A stretch of 64,000 bases of DNA from Geobacter sp. AOG1 (GTDB lineage Bacteria > Desulfobacterota > Desulfuromonadia > Geobacterales > Geobacteraceae): contig NZ_BLIZ01000001.1 in the NCBI RefSeq assembly GCF_019972315.1, forward strand, positions 3,474,472 to 3,538,471, given 5' to 3'. Under the pieces are notes generated by a model that saw only the letters and a list, made by a program, of their open reading frames with translations, ran no database searches and had not been told where the DNA came from. Positions 5,360 through 48,117 of this stretch are shown here, one piece after another. Every line of letters begins with the position of its first letter. Position 1 is the stretch's first letter. Position numbers and translations under genes: made by a program.

Positions 5360-5436
5360 TGGCAGGCCAGGAGGGATTCGAACCCCCAACATCCGGTTTT
5401 GGAGACCGGCGCTCTAGCCGTTAGAGCTACTGGCCT
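5360..5436 (-). tRNA. tRNA-Trp (anticodon CCA)
   Basis: Minus-strand read AGGCCAGTAGCTCTAACGGCTAGAGCGCCGGTCTCCAAAACCGGATGTTGGGGGTTCGAATCCCTCCTGGCCTGCCA; cloverleaf with CCA anticodon; canonical position between rpmG and secE. Confidence 0.9.
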
Positions 5437-5479
5437 GCAGCCAGTGATCACAGCTTGCACTGCGACCAGTTTTCCCAGC

Positions 5480-5629
5480 CTACTTTGTTTCCTTGTGGGG
5501 AGTATGCTTCTGACAGAAGCGGCAGTATTTGCTGAATTCCAGCTTTTCGGGCTTGGTCTTCTTGTTCTTGGTGGTGGTATAGTTTCTCTGCTTGCACTCG
5601 GTGCAGGCAAGCGTGATAATGTCTCTCAT
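5480..5629 (-). CDS. rpmG: 50S ribosomal protein L33 (49 aa; below the ORF-track length cutoff)
   Basis: Minus-strand [52 protein letters not shown] with the CxxC...CxxC zinc-ribbon of L33. Confidence 0.9.
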
Positions 5630-5690
5630 TGCTCTCTTCCTTTATGACATAGACGATATACAGGGGCGACCATGATCGCCCCTGCGGATT

Positions 5691-6881
5691 TTATTCAATG
5701 ATGGAGCTGACCACGCCGGCGCCGACCGTACGGCCACCTTCGCGGATCGCGAACCGCAGTCCTTCGTCCATGGCGATCGGGGTGATCAGGTTGACTGTCA
5801 CCGCTACGTTGTCACCGGGCATGACCATTTCGGTCCCCGCAGCAAGGTCTACGATCCCGGTCACGTCGGTCGTCCGGAAGTAGAACTGCGGACGATACCC
5901 GTTAAAGAACGGCGTGTGACGGCCACCCTCTTCTTTGGTCAGAATGTACGCTTCGGCCTTGAACTTGGTGTGCGGAGTAATGCTCCCCGGCTTGGCAAGT
6001 ACCTGGCCACGCTCGATGTCTTCACGCTTGACACCACGCAGCAGGGCACCGATGTTGTCGCCGGCACGACCTTCGTCCAGAAGCTTCCGGAACATCTCGA
6101 CGCCAGTAACGGTGGTCTTGGCGGTTGCCTTGATACCGACGATCTCGATCTCTTCGCCTACCTTGACAATGCCGCGCTCGACACGACCGGTGGCAACGGT
6201 ACCACGACCGGAGATGGAGAAGACGTCTTCTACCGGCATCAGGAACGGCTTGTCGATGGCGCGCTCCGGCTCGGGGATATAGGCGTCGACTGCATCCATG
6301 AGTGCCATGATGGCTGGCTCGGCCAGCTCACCCTTCTCACCGTTGAGGGCCTGGAGGGCGGAACCTTTGATGATGGGGATATCGTCACCAGGGAAGTCGT
6401 AGGAGGAGAGCAGCTCGCGGATCTCCAGCTCAACCAGTTCCAGGAGTTCGGCGTCGTCAACCATGTCGGCCTTGTTGAGGAACACGACGATGTAGGGAAC
6501 GCCCACCTGACGGGCAAGCAGGATGTGCTCCCGGGTCTGGGGCATGGGGCCGTCAGCGGCGGACACAACCAGAATGGCGCCGTCCATCTGCGCCGCTCCG
6601 GTGATCATGTTCTTGACGTAGTCGGCATGGCCCGGGCAGTCCACGTGCGCATAGTGACGCTTGTCGGTCTCGTATTCAACATGGGCGGTGGCGATGGTGA
6701 TGCCGCGCTCACGCTCTTCCGGGGCGTTGTCGATCTGGTCGAATGCCTTGAACTCGGCCTGACCCTTCCCCGCAAGTACCTTCGTGATCGCTGCCGTCAG
6801 TGTCGTCTTCCCGTGGTCTACGTGACCTATCGTCCCTATGTTTACGTGCGGTTTTGTTCTTTCAAATTTCGCCTTCGCCAT
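5691..6881 (-). CDS. tuf: elongation factor Tu
   Basis: [37 protein letters not shown]...; start placed at internal ATG (6881) preceded by GGAGGAAT; track ORF extends 24 codons further upstream. Confidence 0.97.
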
Positions 6882-6943
6882 GTCCGATTCCTCCCGGGTT
6901 CTCCCCAATGATGATGAAACAATTCTCGGTAGATCTGAAAAAA

Positions 6944-7019
<76 letters not shown>

Positions 7020-7031
7020 ATTGTGGAAAAT

Positions 7032-7108
7032 TGGAGCGGGAAACGGGACTCGAACCCGCGACCCTCAGCTTGGAAGGCTGACGCTCTAGCCAACTGAGCT
7101 ACTCCCGC
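7032..7108 (-). tRNA. tRNA-Gly (anticodon TCC)
   Basis: GCGGGAGTAGCTCAGTTGGCTAGAGCGTCAGCCTTCCAAGCTGAGGGTCGCGGGTTCGAGTCCCGTTTCCCGCTCCA on minus strand. Confidence 0.88.
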
Positions 7109-7220
7109 CAATTCTACGCGTATGAGGTTTTTTGAGATTGCAACCGCCAGCCCAACCCCAGTCCGATCGACCGGTGGTCTCCTGGGAGAGTGCCGCAGCT
7201 GCAAACTCTGTAGCATTTTA

Positions 7221-7306
7221 TGGTGGAGGGAGGAGGATTCGAACCTCCGAAGTCGTCCGACGACAGATTTACAGTCTGTTCCCTTTGGCCACTCGGGAAT
7301 CCCTCC
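7221..7306 (-). tRNA. tRNA-Tyr (anticodon GTA), long variable arm
   Basis: GGAGGGATTCCCGAGTGGCCAAAGGGAACAGACTGTAAATCTGTCGTCGGACGACTTCGGAGGTTCGAATCCTCCTCCCTCCACCA on minus strand. Confidence 0.88.
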
Positions 7307-7335
7307 AGACGAAGAACCAGCAAAAAACCGTTTAG

Positions 7336-7411
7336 TGGAGCTGGCGATGGGACTCGAACCCGCAACCTGCTGATTACAAGTCAGCTGCTCTACCAATTGA
7401 GCTACGCCAGC
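7336..7411 (-). tRNA. tRNA-Thr (anticodon TGT)
   Basis: GCTGGCGTAGCTCAATTGGTAGAGCAGCTGACTTGTAATCAGCAGGTTGCGGGTTCGAGTCCCATCGCCAGCTCCA on minus strand. Confidence 0.88.
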
Positions 7412-40142: not shown

Positions 40143-40829
40143 TTACTTTTGAGCTTGAGATTGAGAAACTTTATCAGCCGTTTTCTGTATAACTTGTTGT
40201 GCTACTTTTTTAAAAACTCGATTCATAAGCTTTTCAATATTTGTTGAGTGCATTACCCCCATTCCTTCCCCTTCGCGGTCTGTTTCATTGATGACCGTAT
40301 CAATAAGTACATCTGAGCTTTTGCCATCAAACAGATTTAAGTTAAGAGTTGCGTTTCTCCGACTGGTAACAGTCAAAAACCCTGTTTCATTGACAAACTC
40401 GAACGACAGTAATTGCCCACCTATTATGTAATCACTAGTCTGCTCTTTGTTTAATTCTTTGATGCTTTGTGCATTGGACTTTGAGAGCACCTTGTCCAGC
40501 GCCTTTGCCTTAAAGCCAGCTTTTGTCAATTCTTGAACCAGAAGTTCTTGGAGTAAGTCTTTGACTGGTATGTAATCAGTTTCTTTGTACGTCATGCCAA
40601 ATTTCCAAGGGCCTTGTAATGCAACAAAACTTTCGCTTTTAACATTACCCTCCTCGACCCACGCCCTTTTATCCTCAAACTTAGCAACACCTAAAGAATA
40701 TTTTTCTAATTCTGTTGCGTTTGATAGACGTGCAGCATCAGCTTGATAAGCGACATCAAATGACCGCGTACACCCGCTTGAGAACGCAACTACAATTAAA
40801 CCAATCACAACCAACCATTTCATTTTCAT
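40143..40829 (-). CDS. hypothetical lipoprotein (228 aa; lipobox FSSGC)
   Basis: MKMKWLVVIGLIVVAFSSGC...; start at ATG 40829 after AAGGAG; AT-rich. Confidence 0.6.
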   Translation of the reverse strand: MKMKWLVVIGLIVVAFSSGCTRSFDVAYQADAARLSNATELEKYSLGVAKFEDKRAWVEEGNVKSESFVALQGPWKFGMTYKETDYIPVKDLLQELLVQELTKAGFKAKALDKVLSKSNAQSIKELNKEQTSDYIIGGQLLSFEFVNETGFLTVTSRRNATLNLNLFDGKSSDVLIDTVINETDREGEGMGVMHSTNIEKLMNRVFKKVAQQVIQKTADKVSQSQAQK

Positions 40830-40904: not shown

Positions 40905-40990
40905 AACACGTTATTGAGCGGTTCACGCACACGCGCGTGAACCGCTGATCTACCCAAATGGAACATTTCTCCCGTGAAACGCTTCTTTCC
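40905..40990 (-). repeat. F-type element (second copy of the E-type palindromic element)
   Basis: GCGCAAC box, CGGTTCACGCACACGCGCGTGAACCG palindrome, then ACCCAAATGGAACATTTCTCC; aligns with 38366-38440. Confidence 0.55.
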
Positions 40991-41027
40991 ACCCCGGTTT
41001 CAAGTGCGGGCGTACCTTCACGCAAAA

Positions 41028-41175
41028 AACCGCCCAGCCGGCATATTGCCAGCATGGGCGGTCTCGATGGGGTACAGGGGCCTGCTCATGGCGCGCTCCC
41101 AGACAGTGCAGTATTCAGAAGAATGAGACTTTTGTAACCCTCCGCGCATCGGCTGTCAAGGAGAAACTGTCACCG
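41028..41175 (-). repeat. Copy 1 of a ~150-nt repeat: promoter-like boxes, RBS, 23-codon micro-ORF (41028-41099), intrinsic terminator (41034-41072)
   Basis: ~88% identical to 47445-47595; minus strand has TTGACA-17nt-TACAAA, GGGAG-6nt-ATG, MSRPLYPIETAHAGNMPAGRFFA, then ACCGCCCATGCTGGCAATATGCCGGCTGGGCGGT hairpin plus TTTTTT. Confidence 0.6.
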
Positions 41176-41388
41176 GGAAATGCTGAAGGCCGGCAGCTCC
41201 AGCCACCGACCCTCCTCCCGCACCCTCATAATTCCTGACTTCTTGCCTGCCGAATTGTCATGCAGGCAGGCCCCTTAAGCTTTTCCTAAGGCTTGAACAA
41301 CAAAAATACATTCTCATTGAGATTATTTTGTAGTATGGTCGCAGTCGATGCGTGATACCTGGCAAAGCCAGCAAACAAGGAGGGGTAC

Positions 41389-42336
41389 ATGATGCACGGG
41401 TTGAGAATCATTCTGACAGCGGTAGTGACCGCCACTTGCCTGGCGGCATGCGGTGGTGGCGGGAGCGGGAGCAGCGGAGGGAGTACCTCAAGCGGCAGCT
41501 ACAGCGGAGCGACCAATCAGGCTACACTGAGCACCGCCAACGCCAGAGCGGTATCAGTGGATGCATACAACGGGGCACAAGCCAGCGCTACCCTGGGGTC
41601 GGTCGGCGTGGTTACGGCCGGCAACGGGGGTGCGACCACCGACGCTCCGCTGGTACAGGTGGTTGCGGATACCCTGGCCGCCTCGGTACAGCGGCTCGAT
41701 CCCAAAGGTGCGACCGGTCCGGCTGCTACGGGGGCATCCGTGCAGGTCAGCATTCCCGGCACTTACGGAGGCACCCTCAGCTACGTGCTCAATGTCAACG
41801 AGACGAACGGTTCCTTCAGCGGCACCTTCACCTACACGAATTTCCAGGAGGTCCAGAACGGCCCCTTCATCTCCGGCGTGGTGACGTTTTCCGGGGTGTA
41901 TGACCAGACGAGCGGGAAGTTCTCCTCGTTCAGCCTGAGTTTCACGGACTTCGCCGCCACCGAATCGGGCAAAACCTTCACCATGTCCGGCACGATAAGC
42001 TGGAGCCTGAGTAGCACCGGTACCAGGGCCGTGACCGCCAACCTGTTCCTGCGCAACAACACCACCGGCGCCATCAGCTGGGTGAAGGACTATACCTTCA
42101 CTCTCACCGCCCAGTGGGCGCTCACCATCACCGGCAGGTACTACGATCCGGTCTACGGCTACGTGGACATTTCGACCCCGGTCCCGCTCCAGGTATCGTC
42201 TCTCTCCGGGCAGCCGACCTCCGGCGTGCTCCTGTTCACCGGCGCCAGCGGCACCAGTGCGAGAATAACGTTCAACGCCACCGGCTACACGGTGGAGGTC
42301 GATACGGGCACCGGGACCTTCGTTACCGCCCCGTAA
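41389..42336 (+). CDS. hypothetical lipoprotein (315 aa; lipobox LAAC, Gly/Ser-rich linker)
   Basis: MMHGLRIILTAVVTATCLAACGGGGSGSSGG...; Thr/Ser/Gly-rich beta-rich body; GC-rich. Confidence 0.65.
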   Translation: MMHGLRIILTAVVTATCLAACGGGGSGSSGGSTSSGSYSGATNQATLSTANARAVSVDAYNGAQASATLGSVGVVTAGNGGATTDAPLVQVVADTLAASVQRLDPKGATGPAATGASVQVSIPGTYGGTLSYVLNVNETNGSFSGTFTYTNFQEVQNGPFISGVVTFSGVYDQTSGKFSSFSLSFTDFAATESGKTFTMSGTISWSLSSTGTRAVTANLFLRNNTTGAISWVKDYTFTLTAQWALTITGRYYDPVYGYVDISTPVPLQVSSLSGQPTSGVLLFTGASGTSARITFNATGYTVEVDTGTGTFVTAP

Positions 42337-42439: not shown

Positions 42440-43378
42440 TCATATAACCAGATGCCCTTTTTTTTCTGCCACCGAGATCATGGCAAGTGTTCCCGAATTG
42501 AACTCAAGGAAATCATTTTCTATCCCGTCACTAAAGATCACTCCATGCTCAGGCATGTGAGAGATGAGCTTGAGGGGTTTCTTTGGGGTGATTTTGCCAA
42601 AGGTGGTCTCGGCAGATGATGTCTTGCTTGGCCACGGCTCACGAACCGAGAAATACAAATAGTTTGCATCCCATTCAAAATTATCCTGCAGTTTCCCTGG
42701 CAGTTTTTTGCCGGAAAGGCGGGACGCAATGCCTGTAGCACCAGCAAGTATGCTCCTGAACCAACCGGTCGACCCGAGCCCGGTTGAAACAATGATTCCA
42801 CTGGAAGAATGCGTCTCCAAACGGTCGTCGATCTGTAGTTCATAGTGGGCAGACGTATGCGATTTCGGCCCTATGAACAGATCGTTCACGCCGTAAAGCG
42901 TCTGGCCGTTGTTGAGTTCAGCCTTTGCCATTGTTACTTCGCGGACCGGTCGGCTTTCAGAGAACACGGCAGGAATAATCCCCGGCAAGTCAGACACCGT
43001 AAATGGCAGGAGGACTCCCTCCCATCGATCCGGATCGGGATTTACTCCCACAACAGACTGGCCATTCAGGTATTTGATGACGTTGGCAACCAGCCCATCC
43101 TGGCCAAGAACGACGACAGTGTCGGTGTGACCAAAGATGAAATTTGTAATAAACTCCCTGTCAACAGTTTGCAGGCGACCTATGTGCGAAAGAAGTCGCT
43201 GGGCATCTTGGACGGAGGCTTTGTATTTCTCGTGCTCACGCTTGTAATCGGAGAAATCAGCCCCGAGATGCTCGACGTAAAATCGTGCCTGTGCCTCCGT
43301 ATTGAAACGCGCAATGAGTTCGTCCAACCGGGTTTTTCTGACGATCAGTACAATCTTGTTTTCGCTGGTACGATCCAT
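42440..43378 (-). CDS. divergent NAD kinase-like (ATP-NAD kinase/DAGK_cat fold) protein
   Basis: 312 aa; N-domain VVVLGQDGLVANV...VVGVNPDP (cf. GGDGT...GINxG) and C-domain ...LQIDDRLETHSSSGIIVSTGLGSTGWFRSI (cf. [21 protein letters not shown]); start overlaps SPFH stop by 1 nt (TAATG). Confidence 0.65.
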   Translation of the reverse strand: MDRTSENKIVLIVRKTRLDELIARFNTEAQARFYVEHLGADFSDYKREHEKYKASVQDAQRLLSHIGRLQTVDREFITNFIFGHTDTVVVLGQDGLVANVIKYLNGQSVVGVNPDPDRWEGVLLPFTVSDLPGIIPAVFSESRPVREVTMAKAELNNGQTLYGVNDLFIGPKSHTSAHYELQIDDRLETHSSSGIIVSTGLGSTGWFRSILAGATGIASRLSGKKLPGKLQDNFEWDANYLYFSVREPWPSKTSSAETTFGKITPKKPLKLISHMPEHGVIFSDGIENDFLEFNSGTLAMISVAEKKGHLVI

Positions 43379-44400
43379 TACTTGGGTGTTCCCTTTGACA
43401 TGAGCTCGCGCAACAGCTCCGGCGAAATATTTAACTGGCCGATTTTATCTGCATTCTCGGCCAGCTCTTTAAAAGCGCTCGCCACAAGCTGGCCGGGATT
43501 CATTCCGACACTCGCCAATGCCTGCAGCGTCTTGGGATCGGTCTTCGCTAGCGCCCCCATGACAGCTGAAATGCCATATGCCTTTGCATCTGCCTCCTGC
43601 TTTGTGTTCTCGGAAGCAAGGGTGACAAATTCGCGGTTTTTCTCTTCGAGCGCGATCTTCGCCGACATTTCTGCCTCGCTTAATTCGCGCATTTTTTTCT
43701 GAACTGACTTTTCAGCATCCATCTGCGTTTCTCTGATCTGCCGTTTTTTGTTTTCAACGGCAATTTCCGTGTTCAACTCATTTTCCTTTATCGCCCGTTC
43801 CTGCTCCACCGCCGCATTTCTCCGTGTATAGACTGCATCGTCCGCTTCACGAAGTATCTGCTCTCGTATCTCCGCCTCAAGGGCGCGTGAAGTCTCGGGT
43901 GTCGGTTTGATGGCTAAAATCGACAAGCCCAGAATCTCTATCCCCAGGGAGGTCGTTTCCTCCGATTGCCGCATCCCCTCCCGCAACGCATTTACAAGGC
44001 CGTCAGAGCTCCCGAGTGCCTGGCGCAGGGACATTTTTTTCAAGGAAGATCGTGTTAATACCTGGGCATGGTTGATGAGCCGTTGCGAAAGTTTTTGCGG
44101 ATCATCCGACGTATAATCTTTCCCGTTTGGTGCTAACGAGAAATTCATCAATTGCGATAGTTTTTTCGGGTCGGTTATGCTGTAGGTGAGCTGTCCTTGT
44201 ACCGTTACCTCCTGAAAATCTGACGTGACCTCTTTGAAAATAAAAGGGACATCAGTGCTTGCGACCGGTATGCGTACTATCGAAGAAGCTGGCGCAAAAT
44301 AAAAAAAGGCCAGGCCAACACCTTCCCTCACCAATTGCCCATTTCGGTAAAGCAGCACATAATCGGTTGGCTGGACTTTAATGAACTTGATCCCTAACAT
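43378..44400 (-). CDS. SPFH/band-7 (stomatin/HflC-like) protein
   Basis: 340 aa; band-7 core then long coiled-coil tail (…KENELNTEIAVENKKRQIRETQMDAEKSVQKKMRELSEAEMSAKIA…). Confidence 0.8.
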   Translation of the reverse strand: MLGIKFIKVQPTDYVLLYRNGQLVREGVGLAFFYFAPASSIVRIPVASTDVPFIFKEVTSDFQEVTVQGQLTYSITDPKKLSQLMNFSLAPNGKDYTSDDPQKLSQRLINHAQVLTRSSLKKMSLRQALGSSDGLVNALREGMRQSEETTSLGIEILGLSILAIKPTPETSRALEAEIREQILREADDAVYTRRNAAVEQERAIKENELNTEIAVENKKRQIRETQMDAEKSVQKKMRELSEAEMSAKIALEEKNREFVTLASENTKQEADAKAYGISAVMGALAKTDPKTLQALASVGMNPGQLVASAFKELAENADKIGQLNISPELLRELMSKGTPK

Positions 44401-44493
44401 GTGGTCTCCTCGCTTTATGTCAGATTACATTCCATGTAAGCGAACCCCTGGCCCCTCACTCGTGTGCCAGGAGGTGCATGGTTGAACACTCCC

Positions 44494-45501
44494 CTATGCG
44501 ATGTGCAATACCGATTTTTTGGGTTTCCCGTTGATGCGCTCTATCCTGCGCCAGCTACTGTTGTCATTCATCGTAATCCAGCGCCTCTCTTCTCCCCGAT
44601 AGAACCAATCCTTGTCTTCCTGATAATATATCTGATGATCCGAAGCCTCCCAGATATTCAGTATCTCGTTACCATGTGCCCGTATTTCGTCAAAGTCCGT
44701 CGTGGCTTTTTGCCCCATTTCACTGTACAGCTCGTTGAGTTCGAGCAGGAGCGTATTGACGTGGGGAGTCATGCGGACAACGTTTAAGCCGATCCGCTGT
44801 GCTTCATCGAAAAGAATGGGATAATTATGCGAGGGGTAATTCGAATTGAGGGTATTGGCTATACGGTCCGCGGTCTCCCCATCGGCGATGTGATAGTTCA
44901 GCAGCTCCTTGCACAGCATTATGGATAGGGATTCCGCGCGATTTACCGCTCCGACAACCAGTGGATGGACATACTGGAACAGTACCTTATAGGGGTTTTC
45001 CTTTATGTCGGATTGCTCCGCCTTCCACAGGCTGATGAGACGGGTTAGTTCATCAAGGCTGACACTTACCCGATCGTTGTCACGATCTACGGGTGAAAGA
45101 TCGTGGGTGAGAGAGGTATCAACCGCGGTCAGATATGCCATCGGACCCATCTGGATCTCGTCAGCGCCCAATGCCAGCATGGTTGCCGCTGAGGCGCATT
45201 GCAGGGGGACAAGAACAACCAATCTGTCGCAATATTGTCGCATCAGATTGACCAAGCGAAGGGCGGCCTGCCCATTTCCCCCGCTTGACTTGATGTACAG
45301 ATAGACGGTTTCGTGCTTGTTGAGCCTTTCCAGGATCGCATAGAGAGCTATCACGTCATTGTTACAGACTTCGCCCTTGCGGTTATTCCAATACGTAATG
45401 AACTTCCCGCCTAGGATCGTACTTATTTTGGTAATTATGGCCTGCGTTTTATTGAACAAAACGGGCGGTTGCTTCACTTTTTGTGGTTCTTGGTTTTCCA
45501 T
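44494..45501 (-). CDS. SDH-family ClpP-fold serine protease (S49/NfeD-STOPP-like)
   Basis: 336 aa from ATG 45501 (AAGGAA RBS); ...YIKSSGGNGQAALRLVNLMRQYCDRLVVLVPLQCASAATMLALGADEI... ClpP/crotonase-fold nucleophile region; track ORF start 45564 falls inside an upstream hairpin. Confidence 0.7.
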   Translation of the reverse strand: MENQEPQKVKQPPVLFNKTQAIITKISTILGGKFITYWNNRKGEVCNNDVIALYAILERLNKHETVYLYIKSSGGNGQAALRLVNLMRQYCDRLVVLVPLQCASAATMLALGADEIQMGPMAYLTAVDTSLTHDLSPVDRDNDRVSVSLDELTRLISLWKAEQSDIKENPYKVLFQYVHPLVVGAVNRAESLSIMLCKELLNYHIADGETADRIANTLNSNYPSHNYPILFDEAQRIGLNVVRMTPHVNTLLLELNELYSEMGQKATTDFDEIRAHGNEILNIWEASDHQIYYQEDKDWFYRGEERRWITMNDNSSWRRIERINGKPKKSVLHIA

Positions 45502-45545
45502 TCGGGGTTCCTTTGCGGAGGTTCGACTCGTTATTGTCATGAAGG

Positions 45546-45592
45546 GGGCAGACCCGCACTTCAAATTTTACATGTGCAGGTCTGCCCTTTCC
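45546..45592 (-). terminator. hairpin between NHL-lipoprotein gene and protease gene (candidate terminator/attenuator)
   Basis: GGGCAGACC(T)GCAC ... GTGCGGGTCTGCCC 14-bp stem; weak T tract. Confidence 0.4.
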
Positions 45593-45606: not shown

Positions 45607-47322
45607 TCATTGCATCTTTCGTATGCGACCGTTATCGCCATCGGCTATGAAGAGGCTCTTGCCATCCGTGGTGATGCACCGGGGATGGTTGAATCTCACC
45701 GCGGTTCCGGTCCCGTCGGCATACCCCATCGTTTGACCCGGGAGGGTACCGGCGGGAGCGCCTGCCAGGGTGGTGACGGCTTTCGTGGAGAGGAGCATCC
45801 TGCGAACGTTGCCGGCGGCCTGGTCCGCGATATAGAGGTATGCGCCATCGGTAATGATCCCCATGGGTTCCTGGAAACGTGCCGCCGTGCCGATACCGTC
45901 CGTCCCCCCCGTGGCCAAGGGAGCGCCTGCCAGGGTGGTGACCTCTCCGGTGGCGATCACCACTTTTCTGATAGTGCAATTGTACGTGTCCGCCACGTAG
46001 AGATACGTGCCGTCCGTGGTGATCCCCTCAAGCCCGTTGAACCTCACTGCAGCGCCGATTCCGTCAGCAGAACCGACGGTACCCGCCGTACCGGCCAGAG
46101 TGGTGACTTCACCGGTGGCGATCACAATCTTCCTGATTGAGGAATAGCCGAAATCCGCCACATAGAGGTTCGTGCCGTCCGTGGTGATTCCCTGGGGTTT
46201 TCCGAAGCGCGCCGCCGTGCCGATCCCGTCAATCGGCGTGGGGGGGGGATAGTCCGTGGTCTGGCCTGCCAGGGTGGTGACTTCTCCGGTGGCAATGACT
46301 ATCTTCCGGACATTGAGGTTCTTTGAGTCGGTCATATAGAGGTTGGTGCCATCCGTGGTGATGCCTGCAGGTCTTCCGAACTGGGCCGCCGGTCCCGTCC
46401 CGTCCGCATAGCCATTAAGATTGAAAGTACCCGCCAGGGTGGTGACGACGCCGGTGGCGATTACCGTTTTGCGGACCGTGCCGTTGATCTCCGTTACGTA
46501 GAGGTTGGCGCCATCCGTGGTGATGCCGAATACTTGTCCGAAAGACGCCGCCGTTCCCGTCCCGTCGATTGACCCCCACGTGCTGCCTGCAAGGGTGCTG
46601 ACGGTGACGGGTGCCTTGCTGAGCGGGATTCCCTGAACTGCGCCACCCATGAGCCTGGGTGTCACCGGTGTCACACTGCCGGATGCCGCTGAGACGACGC
46701 TCGTTCCAATGGCATTTGTCGCCGTCACGGTAAAGGTATAGGCGGTGCCGTTGGTCAGGCCTGTCACGGTTATCGGACTTGTCGTACCTGTTGCCGTGAT
46801 GCCGCCGGGGATCGAGGTCACGGTGTAACCGGTTATCGTGCTGCCGCCGCTGGGCGGAGCCACAAAGCTCACTACCGCCAGGCGATCTCCAAATGTGGCG
46901 GTAACCCCGGTCGGCGCCCCGGGTGCCGTCGCCACCGGCGTCACGCTGTTGGATGCCGCCGATGGGGCACTGGTTCCCGCGACATTCGTTGCCGTCACGG
47001 TAAAGGTGTAGGGAGTGCCGTTGGTCAGGCCTGTCACGGTTATCGGACTTGCCGCGCCTGTTGCGCTCAGGCCGCCGGGGTTAGAGGTTACGGTGTATGC
47101 TAAAATTGGCATGCCGCCATCAGAGGCAGGTGCCGTAAAATTCACGGTTGCCTGTGTATTTCCCTCTATGGCACTGCCGATGGTCGGCGCCCCGGGAGAG
47201 GTTCCCATACCAGTACTGGAAGAGCTGGAGGGAGAGTAAAAGTACGATCCGTTGGAACTGCCACTTCCACAACCGGTTACCGTCATCACACACAAAACCA
47301 GCATTACATAGAGCAATTTCAT
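45607..47322 (-). CDS. lipoprotein with two fibronectin-III-like domains and NHL beta-propeller repeats
   Basis: 571 aa; lipobox VTGCGSG; duplicated ...ITVTGLTNGT(P/A)YTFTVTATN... then six NLY(V/M)(T/A)D...IRK(I/V)VIATG repeats. Confidence 0.8.
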   Translation of the reverse strand: MKLLYVMLVLCVMTVTGCGSGSSNGSYFYSPSSSSSTGMGTSPGAPTIGSAIEGNTQATVNFTAPASDGGMPILAYTVTSNPGGLSATGAASPITVTGLTNGTPYTFTVTATNVAGTSAPSAASNSVTPVATAPGAPTGVTATFGDRLAVVSFVAPPSGGSTITGYTVTSIPGGITATGTTSPITVTGLTNGTAYTFTVTATNAIGTSVVSAASGSVTPVTPRLMGGAVQGIPLSKAPVTVSTLAGSTWGSIDGTGTAASFGQVFGITTDGANLYVTEINGTVRKTVIATGVVTTLAGTFNLNGYADGTGPAAQFGRPAGITTDGTNLYMTDSKNLNVRKIVIATGEVTTLAGQTTDYPPPTPIDGIGTAARFGKPQGITTDGTNLYVADFGYSSIRKIVIATGEVTTLAGTAGTVGSADGIGAAVRFNGLEGITTDGTYLYVADTYNCTIRKVVIATGEVTTLAGAPLATGGTDGIGTAARFQEPMGIITDGAYLYIADQAAGNVRRMLLSTKAVTTLAGAPAGTLPGQTMGYADGTGTAVRFNHPRCITTDGKSLFIADGDNGRIRKMQ

Positions 47323-47444
47323 TTAATCCTCCTCGCGATTTAATAGGAACAAACCCGCGCATCTTTTGGCGGGCAAGATCAACCGGCATAGGCATGCCCC
47401 ACGCCTGAAAAAGGCCCGAGTATTTTCAGCGGCAAATCTACCCT

Positions 47445-47595
47445 TCATAACGCAAAAAACCGCCCAGCCGGCATATTGCCGGCATGGGCGGTTTGGATGG
47501 GGTACAGGGGCCTGCTCATGGCGCGCTCCCAGGCGGTGCGTTATTCAAAAGGGTGAAATGTTTGTAACCCTCCGCGCATCGGCTGTCAAGGAGAA
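47445..47595 (-). repeat. Copy 2 of the ~150-nt repeat: promoter-like boxes (47561-47589), RBS, 24-codon micro-ORF (47445-47519), terminator (47451-47492)
   Basis: Minus strand TTGACA-17-TACAAA, GGGAGCGCGCC-ATG, MSRPLYPIQTAHAGNMPAGRFFAL, hairpin ACCGCCCATGCCGGCAATATGCCGGCTGGGCGGT plus TTTTTT; 123 nt upstream of the NHL lipoprotein start. Confidence 0.6.
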
Positions 47596-47655: not shown

Positions 47656-48117
47656 TCACTGTGCCGGTTCGGCCTTCCCTTCTTCCGGATCCTTCATGTC
47701 CCTGTTGGCTTTGGCAACCGCCTTCAACGCCTCGGCCTGGATCGTCGGCATCAGCTCTCCCATGAACGCCCCCATCTTCTTCGTGGCGGACACCCCGACG
47801 GGGGAACCGTAGAAGTCGGCCAGGGCGGCCAGCTCATCGGCGGTAAAGATCTTGACCATGGAATCCTTCATGGATTTCGTGACCGCCTCGATATCCAGAT
47901 ACTTGGTCATGATGTTCCTGAATTGCTCCCGCTGGTCCGGCGGCAGGTTGAGAGCCATCTGATCCGCCACGTCCTGGAACATCACCCGCGGCGGCGTAAC
48001 CGCAAGATAGCGCTCGGCTTCGGCATTCCTGTTCTGCACCGTATCCTGGACCGCGAATGCCGTGCTGCTCACGAGCCCCATCATGATAACCAGTACAAGT
48101 TTTTTCATGGTCTGCAT
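47656..48117 (-). CDS. DUF2059-family periplasmic protein
   Basis: 153 aa with signal peptide MQTMKKLVLVIMMGLVSSTAFA. Confidence 0.65.
   Translation of the reverse strand: MQTMKKLVLVIMMGLVSSTAFAVQDTVQNRNAEAERYLAVTPPRVMFQDVADQMALNLPPDQREQFRNIMTKYLDIEAVTKSMKDSMVKIFTADELAALADFYGSPVGVSATKKMGAFMGELMPTIQAEALKAVAKANRDMKDPEEGKAEPAQ

What the first reader, a model, noticed from the sequence alone, without database searches (positions are those of the whole stretch)
41028..41175. Duplicated ~150-nt element encoding promoter, RBS, proline-rich micro-ORF and terminator (second copy 47445-47595)
Two copies about 88% identical sit 6.4 kb apart. Read on the minus strand, each has TTGACA-17 nt-TACAAA and a strong RBS (GGGAG, 6-nt spacing). 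A 23-24-codon ORF follows, encoding MSRPLYPI(E/Q)TAHAGNMPAGRFFA(L). Its last third is embedded in a GC-rich hairpin followed by TTTTTT, an intrinsic terminator. A variable ~30-nt patch lies between the promoter and the RBS. Copy 2 is 123 nt upstream of the Fn3/NHL lipoprotein start. Copy 1 abuts the F element upstream of the lipoprotein gene at 40143-40829. This architecture is that of a translation-coupled attenuator, where ribosomes translating the Pro-rich peptide would melt the terminator. It could also be a small RNA or small-protein gene. It matches none of the common riboswitch consensus sequences I can recognise by eye; GEMM was considered and rejected.
Basis: seen in the sequence. Interest (0 to 1): 0.55.

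Follow-up and report, generated by a model that had tools for sequence, protein, structure and literature searches.

The report
Repeated promoter-leader-terminator cassette in Geobacter
Two near-identical 146-base units in this Geobacter genome each carry a promoter, a ribosome-binding site with a start codon and a strong terminator. Six more copies in close relatives sit in front of envelope-protein genes, so this is probably an unannotated regulatory leader, not a gene for the proposed peptide.

Summary
The duplication is real: 41020-41165 and 47450-47595 (minus strand) are 91% identical over 146 nt, and the window has no third copy. The source is Geobacter sp. AOG1. The same locus in three related Geobacteraceae genomes or contigs gave six more copies, making eight distinct sequences, plus one internally deleted remnant and two empty sites.

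Homology always runs from 6 nt upstream of TTGACA to about 10 nt past the T-tract, which is one promoter-to-terminator unit. The proposed 23-24-residue peptide is not conserved. Two copies have premature stops and three have 1-nt frameshifts.

The most conserved transcribed block is GGGAGCnCnCCATGAGCAG, a Shine-Dalgarno sequence, a 6-nt spacer, AUG and the next five bases. The terminator 5' arm is also invariant. No central RNA structure is supported, no antiterminator is conserved, and Rfam has no match.

In three genomes the T-tract lies 36 nt upstream of a lipocalin start codon, so that gene must be transcribed by read-through. My best reading is a cis-acting attenuator in which a ribosome loaded at the conserved AUG covers the terminator. 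The peptide sequence would not matter. A trans-acting small RNA remains a serious rival. The family is new, restricted to one clade, and untested experimentally.

The parts
41020..41165 (-). Copy 1, whole cassette (TTCTCC, -35 through terminator, to GCGT)
   Evidence: Repeat family D5. blastn and nhmmer hits. CM hit of 137.6 bits. It is orthologous to the lipocalin-linked copies L093_a, L095 and L089_a, judged by shared upstream flank.
47450..47595 (-). Copy 2, whole cassette
   Evidence: 138.2 bits. A strain variant, L094, is 99% identical. The same site is empty in L095 and L100 and holds a deleted remnant in L089.
41131..41159 (-). Copy 1 promoter-like site: TTGACA, 17 nt, TACAAA
   Evidence: Read from sequence. 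The motif TTGAC-N-TTACAAA occurs only at the two copies in the window, against 0.02 expected. It occurs only at the element in related loci. The consensus scanner did not call it.
47561..47589 (-). Copy 2 promoter-like site, 100% identical to copy 1 including the spacer
41081..41101 (-). Copy 1 invariant block UGGGAGCGCGCCAUGAGCAGG: Shine-Dalgarno GGGAG 41100-41096 and AUG 41089-41087
   Evidence: 17 of 19 positions are invariant across 8 copies. By chance, a strict SD-N5-9-ATG falls inside a given 21-nt block at a rate of 0.007.
47511..47531 (-). Copy 2 invariant SD-AUG block (GGGAG 47530-47526, AUG 47519-47517)
41018..41089 (-). Copy 1 leader ORF, 23 codons plus TGA. It runs through the terminator.
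   Evidence: The frame is not conserved in relatives.
47445..47519 (-). Copy 2 leader ORF, 24 codons plus TGA
41024..41062 (-). Copy 1 intrinsic terminator: bulged 14-15-bp GC hairpin (41062-41029) plus T-tract (41029-41024)
   Evidence: Folds at -29.0 kcal/mol. The consensus hairpin has z = -6.4. 94.6% of cells pair across the copies.
47454..47492 (-). Copy 2 intrinsic terminator
   Evidence: Folds at -30.8 kcal/mol.
41102..41130 (-). Copy 1 variable 5' patch of the transcript
   Evidence: 64% identical to copy 2, against 100% for the promoter and 96% for the core plus terminator.
47532..47560 (-). Copy 2 variable 5' patch. It is complementary to the 21 nt after the T-tract (47433-47453).
   Evidence: Duplex of -20.4 kcal/mol, seen only in copy 2.

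Best explanation
Each copy is a self-contained cis-regulatory cassette. It holds a sigma-70-like promoter, a roughly 40-nt untranslated 5' stretch, a canonical translation-initiation region (GGGAG, 6 nt, AUG), and 27 nt further on a strong intrinsic terminator.

**Proposed mechanism.**
- Transcription starting at the cassette stops at the terminator, giving an RNA of about 105 nt.
- It reads through only if a ribosome has loaded at the leader AUG and occupies the 5' arm of the hairpin when RNA polymerase reaches the T-tract.
- Read-through then expresses the downstream envelope gene.

**Downstream genes.** They are a lipocalin in relatives, the Fn3/NHL lipoprotein for copy 2, and the 228-aa lipoprotein for copy 1. 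Only the act of translation matters, not the peptide.

**Shown.**
- The family and its boundaries.
- The invariant SD-AUG block and terminator arm.
- Loss of the peptide frame.
- The position directly upstream of genes.

**Inferred.**
- The promoter and transcription start.
- That the AUG is used.
- That ribosomes cause read-through.
- What signal modulates initiation.
For: 1. **A conserved family.** Eight distinct copies occur in four Geobacteraceae lineages: AOG1, MAG GCA_003575145, Geomobilimonas luticola and a JGI contig. Homology begins 6 nt before the -35 and ends about 10 nt after the T-tract. The core is 82-99% identical, while flanks are unalignable or about 58% identical. The neighbouring DUF2059 proteins are only 77-85% identical. 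This points to strong purifying selection on the DNA or RNA.
2. **No room for a second promoter.** In L093_a, L089_a and L095 the T-tract is 36 nt from the lipocalin ATG, with only an RBS between them. The lipocalin gene must therefore be transcribed through the terminator.
3. **The conserved block looks like a ribosome-binding site.** The most conserved transcribed block is SD + spacer + AUG + 5 nt, with 17 of 19 positions invariant. The next 19 nt have 5 invariant positions. A strict SD-ATG falls in a given 21-nt block by chance at 0.007.
4. **No RNA-only alternative.** No conserved antiterminator pairs with the terminator 5' arm in truncated folds. The central hairpin is no more stable than shuffles, z = -0.14. 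Rfam gives no hit.
5. **Every copy lets a ribosome reach the terminator.** In all eight, an ORF from the conserved AUG either traverses the terminator or stops 0-12 nt before it. In L093_a and L095 it ends in ATGA, overlapping the lipocalin start.
6. **Decay tracks loss of the downstream gene.** L089_b, the one copy with no co-oriented downstream gene, is the most decayed, with a terminator of -12.7 kcal/mol.
7. **The remnant loses both functions together.** The L089 remnant has lost the -10, the TIR and the 5' arm in one deletion.
Against: - All three reading frames are open through the GC-rich hairpin, so 'the ORF traverses the terminator' carries no statistical weight.
- No pause site or U-rich sensing tract precedes the hairpin. 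It is unclear how a ribosome could catch up within about 66 nt.
- The SD can pair weakly with the downstream C-tract.
- The -10 hexamer lacks the consensus final T, and there is no transcript evidence.
- In AOG1, copy 1 lies 194 nt from the next start codon. In between sits a separate conserved upstream element (F) that serves other genes without the cassette. Yet copy 1 is perfectly maintained. That fits a trans-acting RNA, or gene conversion from copy 2, better than cis control.
- Only eight closely related sequences are available, with zero compensatory changes.
Confidence: 0.45

Rival explanations
1. Each copy is a gene for a trans-acting small RNA of about 105 nt: promoter, conserved single-stranded block acting as seed, and a Rho-independent terminator with a U tail. 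The copies form a paralogous sRNA family clustered in one locus. Read-through into downstream genes would be incidental or secondary.
For: - Homology is bounded exactly by promoter and terminator.
- The terminator is strong and no antiterminator is conserved.
- AOG1 copy 1 is fully conserved although it is separated from the next gene by 194 nt and an independent upstream element.
- The 5' patch differs between paralogues, as expected for diversified targeting.
- The promoter and core are homogenised within the AOG1 genome, 100% and 96%.
Against: - The conserved block is SD-like with an AUG, not an anti-SD seed.
- Three orthologous copies leave no room for a separate lipocalin promoter.
- The copy with no downstream gene is the decayed one.
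- No site in the 64-kb window pairs with the core better than with shuffled cores. This is a weak test.
Confidence: 0.25
2. The cassette is a cis-acting attenuator whose read-through is set by a protein or small-molecule ligand that binds the invariant GGGAGCnCnCCAUGAGCAG block or the terminator 5' arm. This would be riboswitch-like or antiterminator-protein-like. The AUG would not be translated.
For: - The cis position is the same as in the best explanation.
- Primary-sequence invariance extends beyond what an SD and AUG alone need, covering the spacer and codons 2-3.
- C->U changes on the C-rich arm keep G-U pairs with the SD arm in L093_b and L089_a.
Against: - No Rfam family matches even at E <= 10.
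- No multi-helix aptamer is apparent.
- The central hairpin has z = -0.14.
- There is no covariation.
- No conserved alternative pairing involves the terminator.
- No RNA-binding antiterminator gene is seen in the neighbourhood. Pfam finds only PAS, receiver, PilZ, DUF2059 and a methyltransferase.
Confidence: 0.2
3. The micro-ORF encodes a functional 23-24-residue peptide, making this a small-protein gene or a sequence-specific sensor peptide.
For: - A good SD and AUG are present.
- The first seven codons (MSRPLYP) are kept in 5 of 8 copies.
Against: - The frame is broken in 5 of 8 copies. There are 1-nt deletions in L093_a, L095 and L089_c, a stop at codon 9 in L093_b, and a stop at codon 6 in L089_b.
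- The frameshift shared by L093_a and L095 has persisted through speciation.
- 5 of 6 codon differences between those two copies are non-synonymous.
- No similar protein turned up in 1.84 billion representatives when the translation of the antisense strand across the element was used as query.
Confidence: 0.02
4. The unit is selfish or neutral repeated DNA, or a decaying remnant of a gene's 5' end that was copied around the locus by recombination, with no regulatory role.
For: - There is presence/absence polymorphism at one site: filled in AOG1 and L094, a deleted remnant in L089, and empty in L095 and L100.
- Copies occur at rearrangement boundaries of a variable locus.
Against: - About 90% nucleotide identity is kept between genomes whose neighbouring proteins are 77-85% identical.
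- Conservation is block-wise, following promoter hexamers, TIR and terminator.
- No terminal inverted repeats or target duplications are present.
- There are no hits in plasmids, phages or IMG/VR.
Confidence: 0.05

Closest known systems
pyrBI (and pyrE) attenuators of Escherichia coli (from established knowledge, not tested here)
   Same: A leader ORF with its own SD runs through an intrinsic terminator. A ribosome following RNA polymerase closely prevents hairpin formation. The peptide sequence is irrelevant.
   Different: pyrBI has UTP-sensitive U-rich pause sites before the terminator that set the coupling. No such tract or pause signal is visible here. The genes controlled here are envelope lipoproteins, not nucleotide biosynthesis genes. 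There is no sequence homology.
ampC attenuator of E. coli K-12 (Jaurin et al. 1981, recalled from memory)
   Same: A terminator sits in the leader of an envelope-related gene. A ribosome-binding site with AUG in the leader is proposed to block the hairpin simply by ribosome occupancy, with no meaningful peptide.
   Different: ampC has an AUG-UAA mini-ORF and is a single-copy chromosomal leader. Here the ORFs are 5-38 codons and the cassette, promoter included, is duplicated upstream of different genes.
Amino-acid operon leader-peptide attenuators (trp, his, leu, thr)
   Same: Promoter, short leader ORF, and an intrinsic terminator before the structural genes.
   Different: Those have runs of regulatory codons, a conserved peptide frame, a leader stop upstream of the terminator, and a defined antiterminator (2:3) helix. 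Frame conservation and an antiterminator were tested here and not found. No regulatory codon run was evident.
Multi-copy trans-acting sRNA families (e.g. Qrr1-5, PrrF1/2, OmrA/B)
   Same: Paralogous units of about 100 nt, each with its own conserved promoter and Rho-independent terminator. One block is conserved and one part is variable.
   Different: In those families the conserved block is an anti-SD or target-pairing seed, and the genes stand alone. Here the block looks like an SD-AUG site, and three copies abut the next gene's RBS.
Terminator-type riboswitches (e.g. GEMM-I/c-di-GMP, common in Geobacter)
   Same: A cis leader with an intrinsic terminator upstream of envelope or surface-protein genes. 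Several copies occur per genome.
   Different: No match to any Rfam model. There is no multi-helix aptamer, no covariation and no expression-platform alternative pairing. The copies share even their promoter, which riboswitch copies normally do not.

Membership tests
Leader-ORF transcription attenuator, ribosome-occupancy type (pyrBI/ampC-like) | Leader ORF with a functional-looking SD and start codon | tested here: met
   GGGAG, 6 nt, AUG is invariant in 8 of 8 copies. The chance rate for a given 21-nt block is 0.007.
Leader-ORF transcription attenuator, ribosome-occupancy type (pyrBI/ampC-like) | Intrinsic terminator lying within or just after the leader ORF and upstream of the regulated gene | tested here: met
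   The hairpin folds at -25 to -31 kcal/mol with 6-7 U in the 6 intact copies. The ORF covers it or stops 0-12 nt before it. It lies 36 nt from the lipocalin start in 3 copies.
Leader-ORF transcription attenuator, ribosome-occupancy type (pyrBI/ampC-like) | Pause or sensing signal that sets ribosome-polymerase coupling | tested here: not met
   No U-rich tract and no supported pause hairpin lie between the AUG and the terminator. The central hairpin has z = -0.14.
Leader-ORF transcription attenuator, ribosome-occupancy type (pyrBI/ampC-like) | Leader is translated, and translation changes read-through | not testable with these tools
   This needs Ribo-seq or reporter fusions.
Amino-acid-type leader peptide attenuator | Conserved peptide frame with regulatory codons and an antiterminator helix | tested here: not met
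   The frame is broken in 5 of 8 copies. No conserved antiterminator is present.
Riboswitch or other Rfam cis-regulatory RNA | Match to a curated covariance model | tested here: not met
   Nothing at gathering threshold, and only noise at E <= 10.
Riboswitch or other Rfam cis-regulatory RNA | Conserved aptamer structure supported by covariation | tested here: inconclusive
   0 compensatory pairs in 21 pairs over 8 sequences. The sequences are too similar, and shuffles equal the observed values.
Trans-acting sRNA gene | Own promoter and Rho-independent terminator delimiting a short transcript | tested here: met
   Sequence-level only.
Trans-acting sRNA gene | Conserved seed complementary to target mRNAs | tested here: inconclusive
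   No site in the window pairs better than with shuffled controls. The rest of the genome was not available.
Small-protein gene | Reading frame and peptide conserved among homologues | tested here: not met
MITE/REP-like mobile repeat | Terminal inverted repeats, target-site duplication, many dispersed copies | tested here: not met
   By eye, the two ends share no terminal inverted repeat or target duplication. There are only 1-3 copies per 20-kb locus, all in one neighbourhood. No hits in plasmids, phages or IMG/VR.

The most novel reading that the evidence does not exclude
The cassette is a portable 'translation-gated transcription switch'. This is one ~150-nt module of promoter, ribosome-loading site and terminator that a Geobacteraceae lineage copies in front of different envelope-protein genes by recombination. 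It would put those genes under one shared signal, and its terminated product might also act as a small RNA. A regulatory unit that spreads with its promoter attached, and works without a conserved peptide or an RNA aptamer, would be a distinct way of building a regulon.
Probability: 0.15. Interest if true: 0.6.

Novelty: new member of a known kind. Interest (0 to 1): 0.35.

Why it matters
If the model holds, this is an undescribed leader family absent from Rfam. It would control outer-membrane and lipoprotein genes (a Blc-type lipocalin, an Fn3/NHL lipoprotein and others) in a Geobacteraceae subclade.

- It would be a clean natural example of terminator control by ribosome occupancy without a conserved peptide.
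- The whole regulatory module, promoter included, has been duplicated, deleted and homogenised within one variable locus.
- It is small enough to test directly with reporter fusions and could serve as a compact regulatory part.

Its reach is limited. Only eight copies in four close lineages were found, and nothing is known about the signal.

Tried and rejected
**Searches that found nothing useful**
- Rfam at gathering threshold and at E <= 10 gave only noise.
- An exact 20-mer from the core had 0 hits in genome contigs.
- The same 20-mer had 2 hits in metagenome contigs. L007 lies inside an apparent protein-coding stretch. L008 is a high-GC contig with no other similarity. I judged both to be chance.
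- Homologues of the downstream 228-aa lipoprotein have no element upstream.
- I spent the last genome-contig scan on the ClpP-like protease. Its relatives are in Chloroflexota and Burkholderiales, not Geobacter, and none carries the element. This suggests the protease block is a horizontally acquired insertion but was useless for synteny.
- The translation of the strand opposite copy 2 against 1.84 billion representatives gave 0 hits.
- An IMG/VR pattern scan, plasmid blastn and phage blastn gave 0 hits.
- DUF2059 homologues at or below 73% identity (L096-L099) have no copies.

**Structural ideas that failed**
- A long-range helix between the 5' patch and the post-terminator flank is strong only in copy 2. 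Cognate pairs (mean -10.4) are no better than non-cognate pairs (mean -10.8).
- I looked by eye for a loop/5'-patch pseudoknot and for an antiterminator between the SD region and the terminator 5' arm. I also folded truncated leaders. No conserved pairing appeared.
- I compared the sequence by eye with ANTAR, JUMPstart/ops, sigma-54 and ECF promoter consensus sequences. Nothing fitted.

**Literature**
- Searches for Geobacter plus lipocalin plus riboswitch, and for strain AOG1, returned nothing relevant.

Full report
**1. Observation**

The two copies are real. The repeat finder reports 41020-41165 and 47450-47595 as a two-member family at 91% identity over 146 nt. blastn gives E = 1.8e-55 and finds no further copy in the 64-kb window. 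An nhmmer profile and a covariance model run with filters off also find nothing more.

Read on the minus strand, each copy contains these features in order:
- TTCTCC followed by TTGACA, 17 nt, TACAAA.
- A roughly 30-nt patch that differs between the copies.
- A 37-nt block identical in both copies, containing GGGAG, 6 nt, ATG.
- A bulged GC-rich hairpin followed by TTTTTT.

The ORFs are 23 and 24 codons and end 3-6 nt after the T-tract. The hairpin is very stable, at -29 to -31.7 kcal/mol with z = -6.4.

Two cautions apply. TACAAA lacks the consensus final T. The simple consensus scanner called neither the promoter nor the bulged terminator.

**2. Source and context**

The downstream lipoprotein is 100% identical to a protein of Geobacter sp. 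AOG1.

Copy 2 lies between a DUF2059 gene (47656-48117) and an Fn3/NHL lipoprotein gene (45607-47322). That gene is followed by a ClpP-like protease, an SPFH protein and a 312-aa protein.

Copy 1 lies in a divergent intergenic region. On one side is a plus-strand lipoprotein gene (41389-42336). On the other is the minus-strand 228-aa lipoprotein gene (40143-40829), and a separate palindromic repeat (40905-40972) sits between copy 1 and that gene.

**3. Finding relatives**

Rfam has nothing, either at gathering threshold or at E <= 10. An exact 20-mer of the core is absent from the genome collection. It gave only two apparently fortuitous metagenome hits. Homologues of the 228-aa lipoprotein and of the protease carry no element.

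The contexts of DUF2059 homologues did:

| Locus | Source | What it carries |
|---|---|---|
| L094 | ENA contig | A 99% strain variant of copy 2 |
| L093 | Geomobilimonas luticola | Two copies |
| L089-L092 | MAG Geobacter sp. GCA_003575145 | Three copies plus an internally deleted remnant |
| L095 | JGI contig | One copy |

More distant DUF2059 loci (<= 73% identity) have none. There are no hits in IMG/VR, plasmids or phages. No spurious ORF over the element exists among 1.84 billion protein representatives. The family therefore stands at eight distinct sequences in four close lineages, all in one variable locus.

**4. Anatomy of the family**

In every copy, homology starts at TTCTCC, six bases before the -35, and ends about ten bases after the T-tract at GCGTYAWGAAG. 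That is exactly a promoter-to-terminator unit. The promoter motif occurs nowhere else in the window or in 100 fetched loci.

Conservation is block-wise:
- The -35 and -10 regions are invariant, while the spacer varies between genomes.
- The 5' patch is 32-93% identical.
- Seventeen of 19 positions of GGGAGCnCnCCATGAGCAG are invariant.
- The next 19 nt have only 5 invariant positions.
- The terminator 5' arm AAACCGCCCA is invariant.
- The loop is free to vary.

The neighbouring DUF2059 proteins are only 77-85% identical, and orthologous flanks are about 58% identical. The 82-99% identity of the core therefore reflects selection.

Within AOG1 the promoter (100%) and core (96%) of the two copies are more alike than copy 1 is to its orthologues. 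The patch (64%) is not. This mosaic suggests gene conversion between the paralogues.

**5. The micro-ORF**

Starting from the invariant AUG:

| Copies | Fate of the AOG1 frame |
|---|---|
| AOG1 c1, AOG1 c2, L089_a | Frame kept |
| L093_a, L095 | Shared 1-nt deletion after codon 6. Both read a different 34-codon frame that ends in ATGA on the lipocalin start. |
| L089_c | A different 1-nt deletion |
| L093_b | TAA at codon 9, immediately before the hairpin |
| L089_b | TAA at codon 6 |

Between L093_a and L095, 5 of 6 codon differences are non-synonymous. The peptide is therefore not under selection, and the small-protein and proline-rich sensor-peptide readings fall.

All three frames are open through the GC-rich hairpin. 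Openness of the ORF is therefore not evidence by itself.

**6. RNA structure**

RNAalifold predicts a small hairpin that pairs GGGAGC with GCCCC, followed by the terminator. There are no compensatory changes in 21 pairs, and shuffles match the observed values. The sequences are simply too similar to test this.

The only changes in intact copies are C->U substitutions that keep G-U pairs. The central hairpin is no more stable than shuffled sequence, z = -0.14. Folding leaders truncated before the 3' arm shows no conserved partner for the terminator 5' arm, so no RNA-encoded antiterminator exists.

A strong helix between the 5' patch and the post-terminator flank exists only in copy 2.

**7. Cis or trans?**

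Evidence for cis action:
- In L093_a, L089_a and L095 the T-tract is 36 nt from the lipocalin ATG. Only an AAGGGAGAA ribosome-binding site lies between them. There is no room for a promoter, so lipocalin transcription must pass the terminator.
- Seven of eight copies are co-oriented with the next gene (lipocalin x3, receiver-PilZ, Fn3/NHL lipoprotein, 228-aa lipoprotein, a 153-aa protein).
- The exception, L089_b, faces a convergent gene and is the most decayed copy. Its terminator is -12.7 kcal/mol and it has an early stop.
- The L089 remnant lost the -10, the patch, the SD-AUG block and the 5' arm in one deletion. That removes the promoter and the terminator together.

Evidence for a trans role:
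- AOG1 copy 1 lies 194 nt from its gene.
- A separate conserved upstream element occupies that gap, and the same element serves other genes without the cassette.
- Copy 1 is nevertheless intact.

**8. Mechanism**

The best-conserved transcribed block is a textbook translation-initiation region. Such a motif falls in a given 21-nt block by chance at 0.007, and in a 105-nt stretch at 2-7%. No RNA alternative structure is encoded.

The simplest model is that a ribosome loaded at the leader AUG covers the terminator 5' arm, which begins 27 nt after the AUG, and allows read-through. This matches the geometry of the E. coli pyrBI and ampC attenuators, which I cite from established knowledge.

Weak points:
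- No pause or sensing tract was found.
- The input signal is unknown.
- There is no transcript evidence.

I give this model 0.45. The rivals are a trans-acting sRNA at 0.25, a factor- or ligand-dependent attenuator without translation at 0.20, neutral or mobile DNA at 0.05, and a small protein at 0.02.

**9. Evolution**

The site between DUF2059 and the Fn3/NHL gene is filled in AOG1 and L094. It holds a deleted remnant in the MAG. It is empty in L095 and L100, where the junction reads GGCTGTTGAT|G(GT)GAGCGGATTTGC. No terminal inverted repeats or target duplications are present. The cassette has therefore been gained and lost by recombination, not transposition.

The protease-SPFH block between the two AOG1 copies has its closest relatives outside Geobacter, so it is probably an acquired insertion.

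**10. Verdict**

The attenuator architecture is supported, but the peptide is not. This is an unannotated, clade-restricted leader or small-RNA family not in Rfam and unmatched in the phage, plasmid and IMG/VR collections searched, and most likely a new member of the ribosome-occupancy attenuator kind. Interest is moderate at 0.35, because the family is small, the signal is unknown and nothing has been tested experimentally.

Noticed in passing
It reads GGAGAAATGTTCCAWTTGGGT followed by a 12-bp palindrome, AGCGGTTCACGC...GCGTGAACCGCT. It always lies just upstream of a co-oriented small gene, in AOG1 and in three related loci. It could be an operator, a promoter or an RNA element. It has no T-tract.
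   Followed up: partly
window 42440-45564 (minus strand): The operon of a ClpP-like (SDH-type) protease, an SPFH/Band-7 protein and a 312-aa protein has its nearest relatives (62-78% aa identity) in Chloroflexota, Acidobacteriota and Burkholderiales genomes. None of the 80 best loci is from Geobacter. It looks like a horizontally acquired block inserted between the Fn3/NHL gene and copy 1.
   Followed up: partly
window 47433-47453 with 47537-47560 (minus strand): In copy 2 and its strain variant L094 only, the variable 5' patch is complementary to the 21 nt right after the T-tract (AUAACGC/GCGUUAU plus ACCCUU/AAGGGU). The duplex is -20.4 kcal/mol, and the whole leader has z = -4.3. In a read-through transcript this helix would enclose the entire leader. 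It is not conserved in the other copies.
   Followed up: partly
L089 10490-10530: This is an internally deleted remnant of the cassette. TTGACA is fused directly to the hairpin loop, 3' arm and T-tract. It lies downstream of DUF2059 and upstream of a DUF2846 gene. Its downstream flank matches that of copy L089_c.
   Followed up: yes
window 41166-41270 (minus strand); L095 2430-2525; L093 11120-11207: About 100 nt upstream of the -35 of the lipocalin-type copies is also conserved between genomes. It includes the hairpin GGCCGGCGGCTGGAGCTGCCGGCC and the stretch AAGTCAGGAATTA-GAGGGTG. This could be an upstream regulatory site for this promoter or for the divergent gene.
   Followed up: no
window 45641-47118: The Fn3/NHL lipoprotein gene contains internal tandem repeats, with periods of about 165-174 nt and 270 nt. 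They correspond to its NHL and Fn3 domain repeats. This is ordinary.
   Followed up: no
window 5363-7411 (minus strand): A cluster of five tRNA genes.
   Followed up: no
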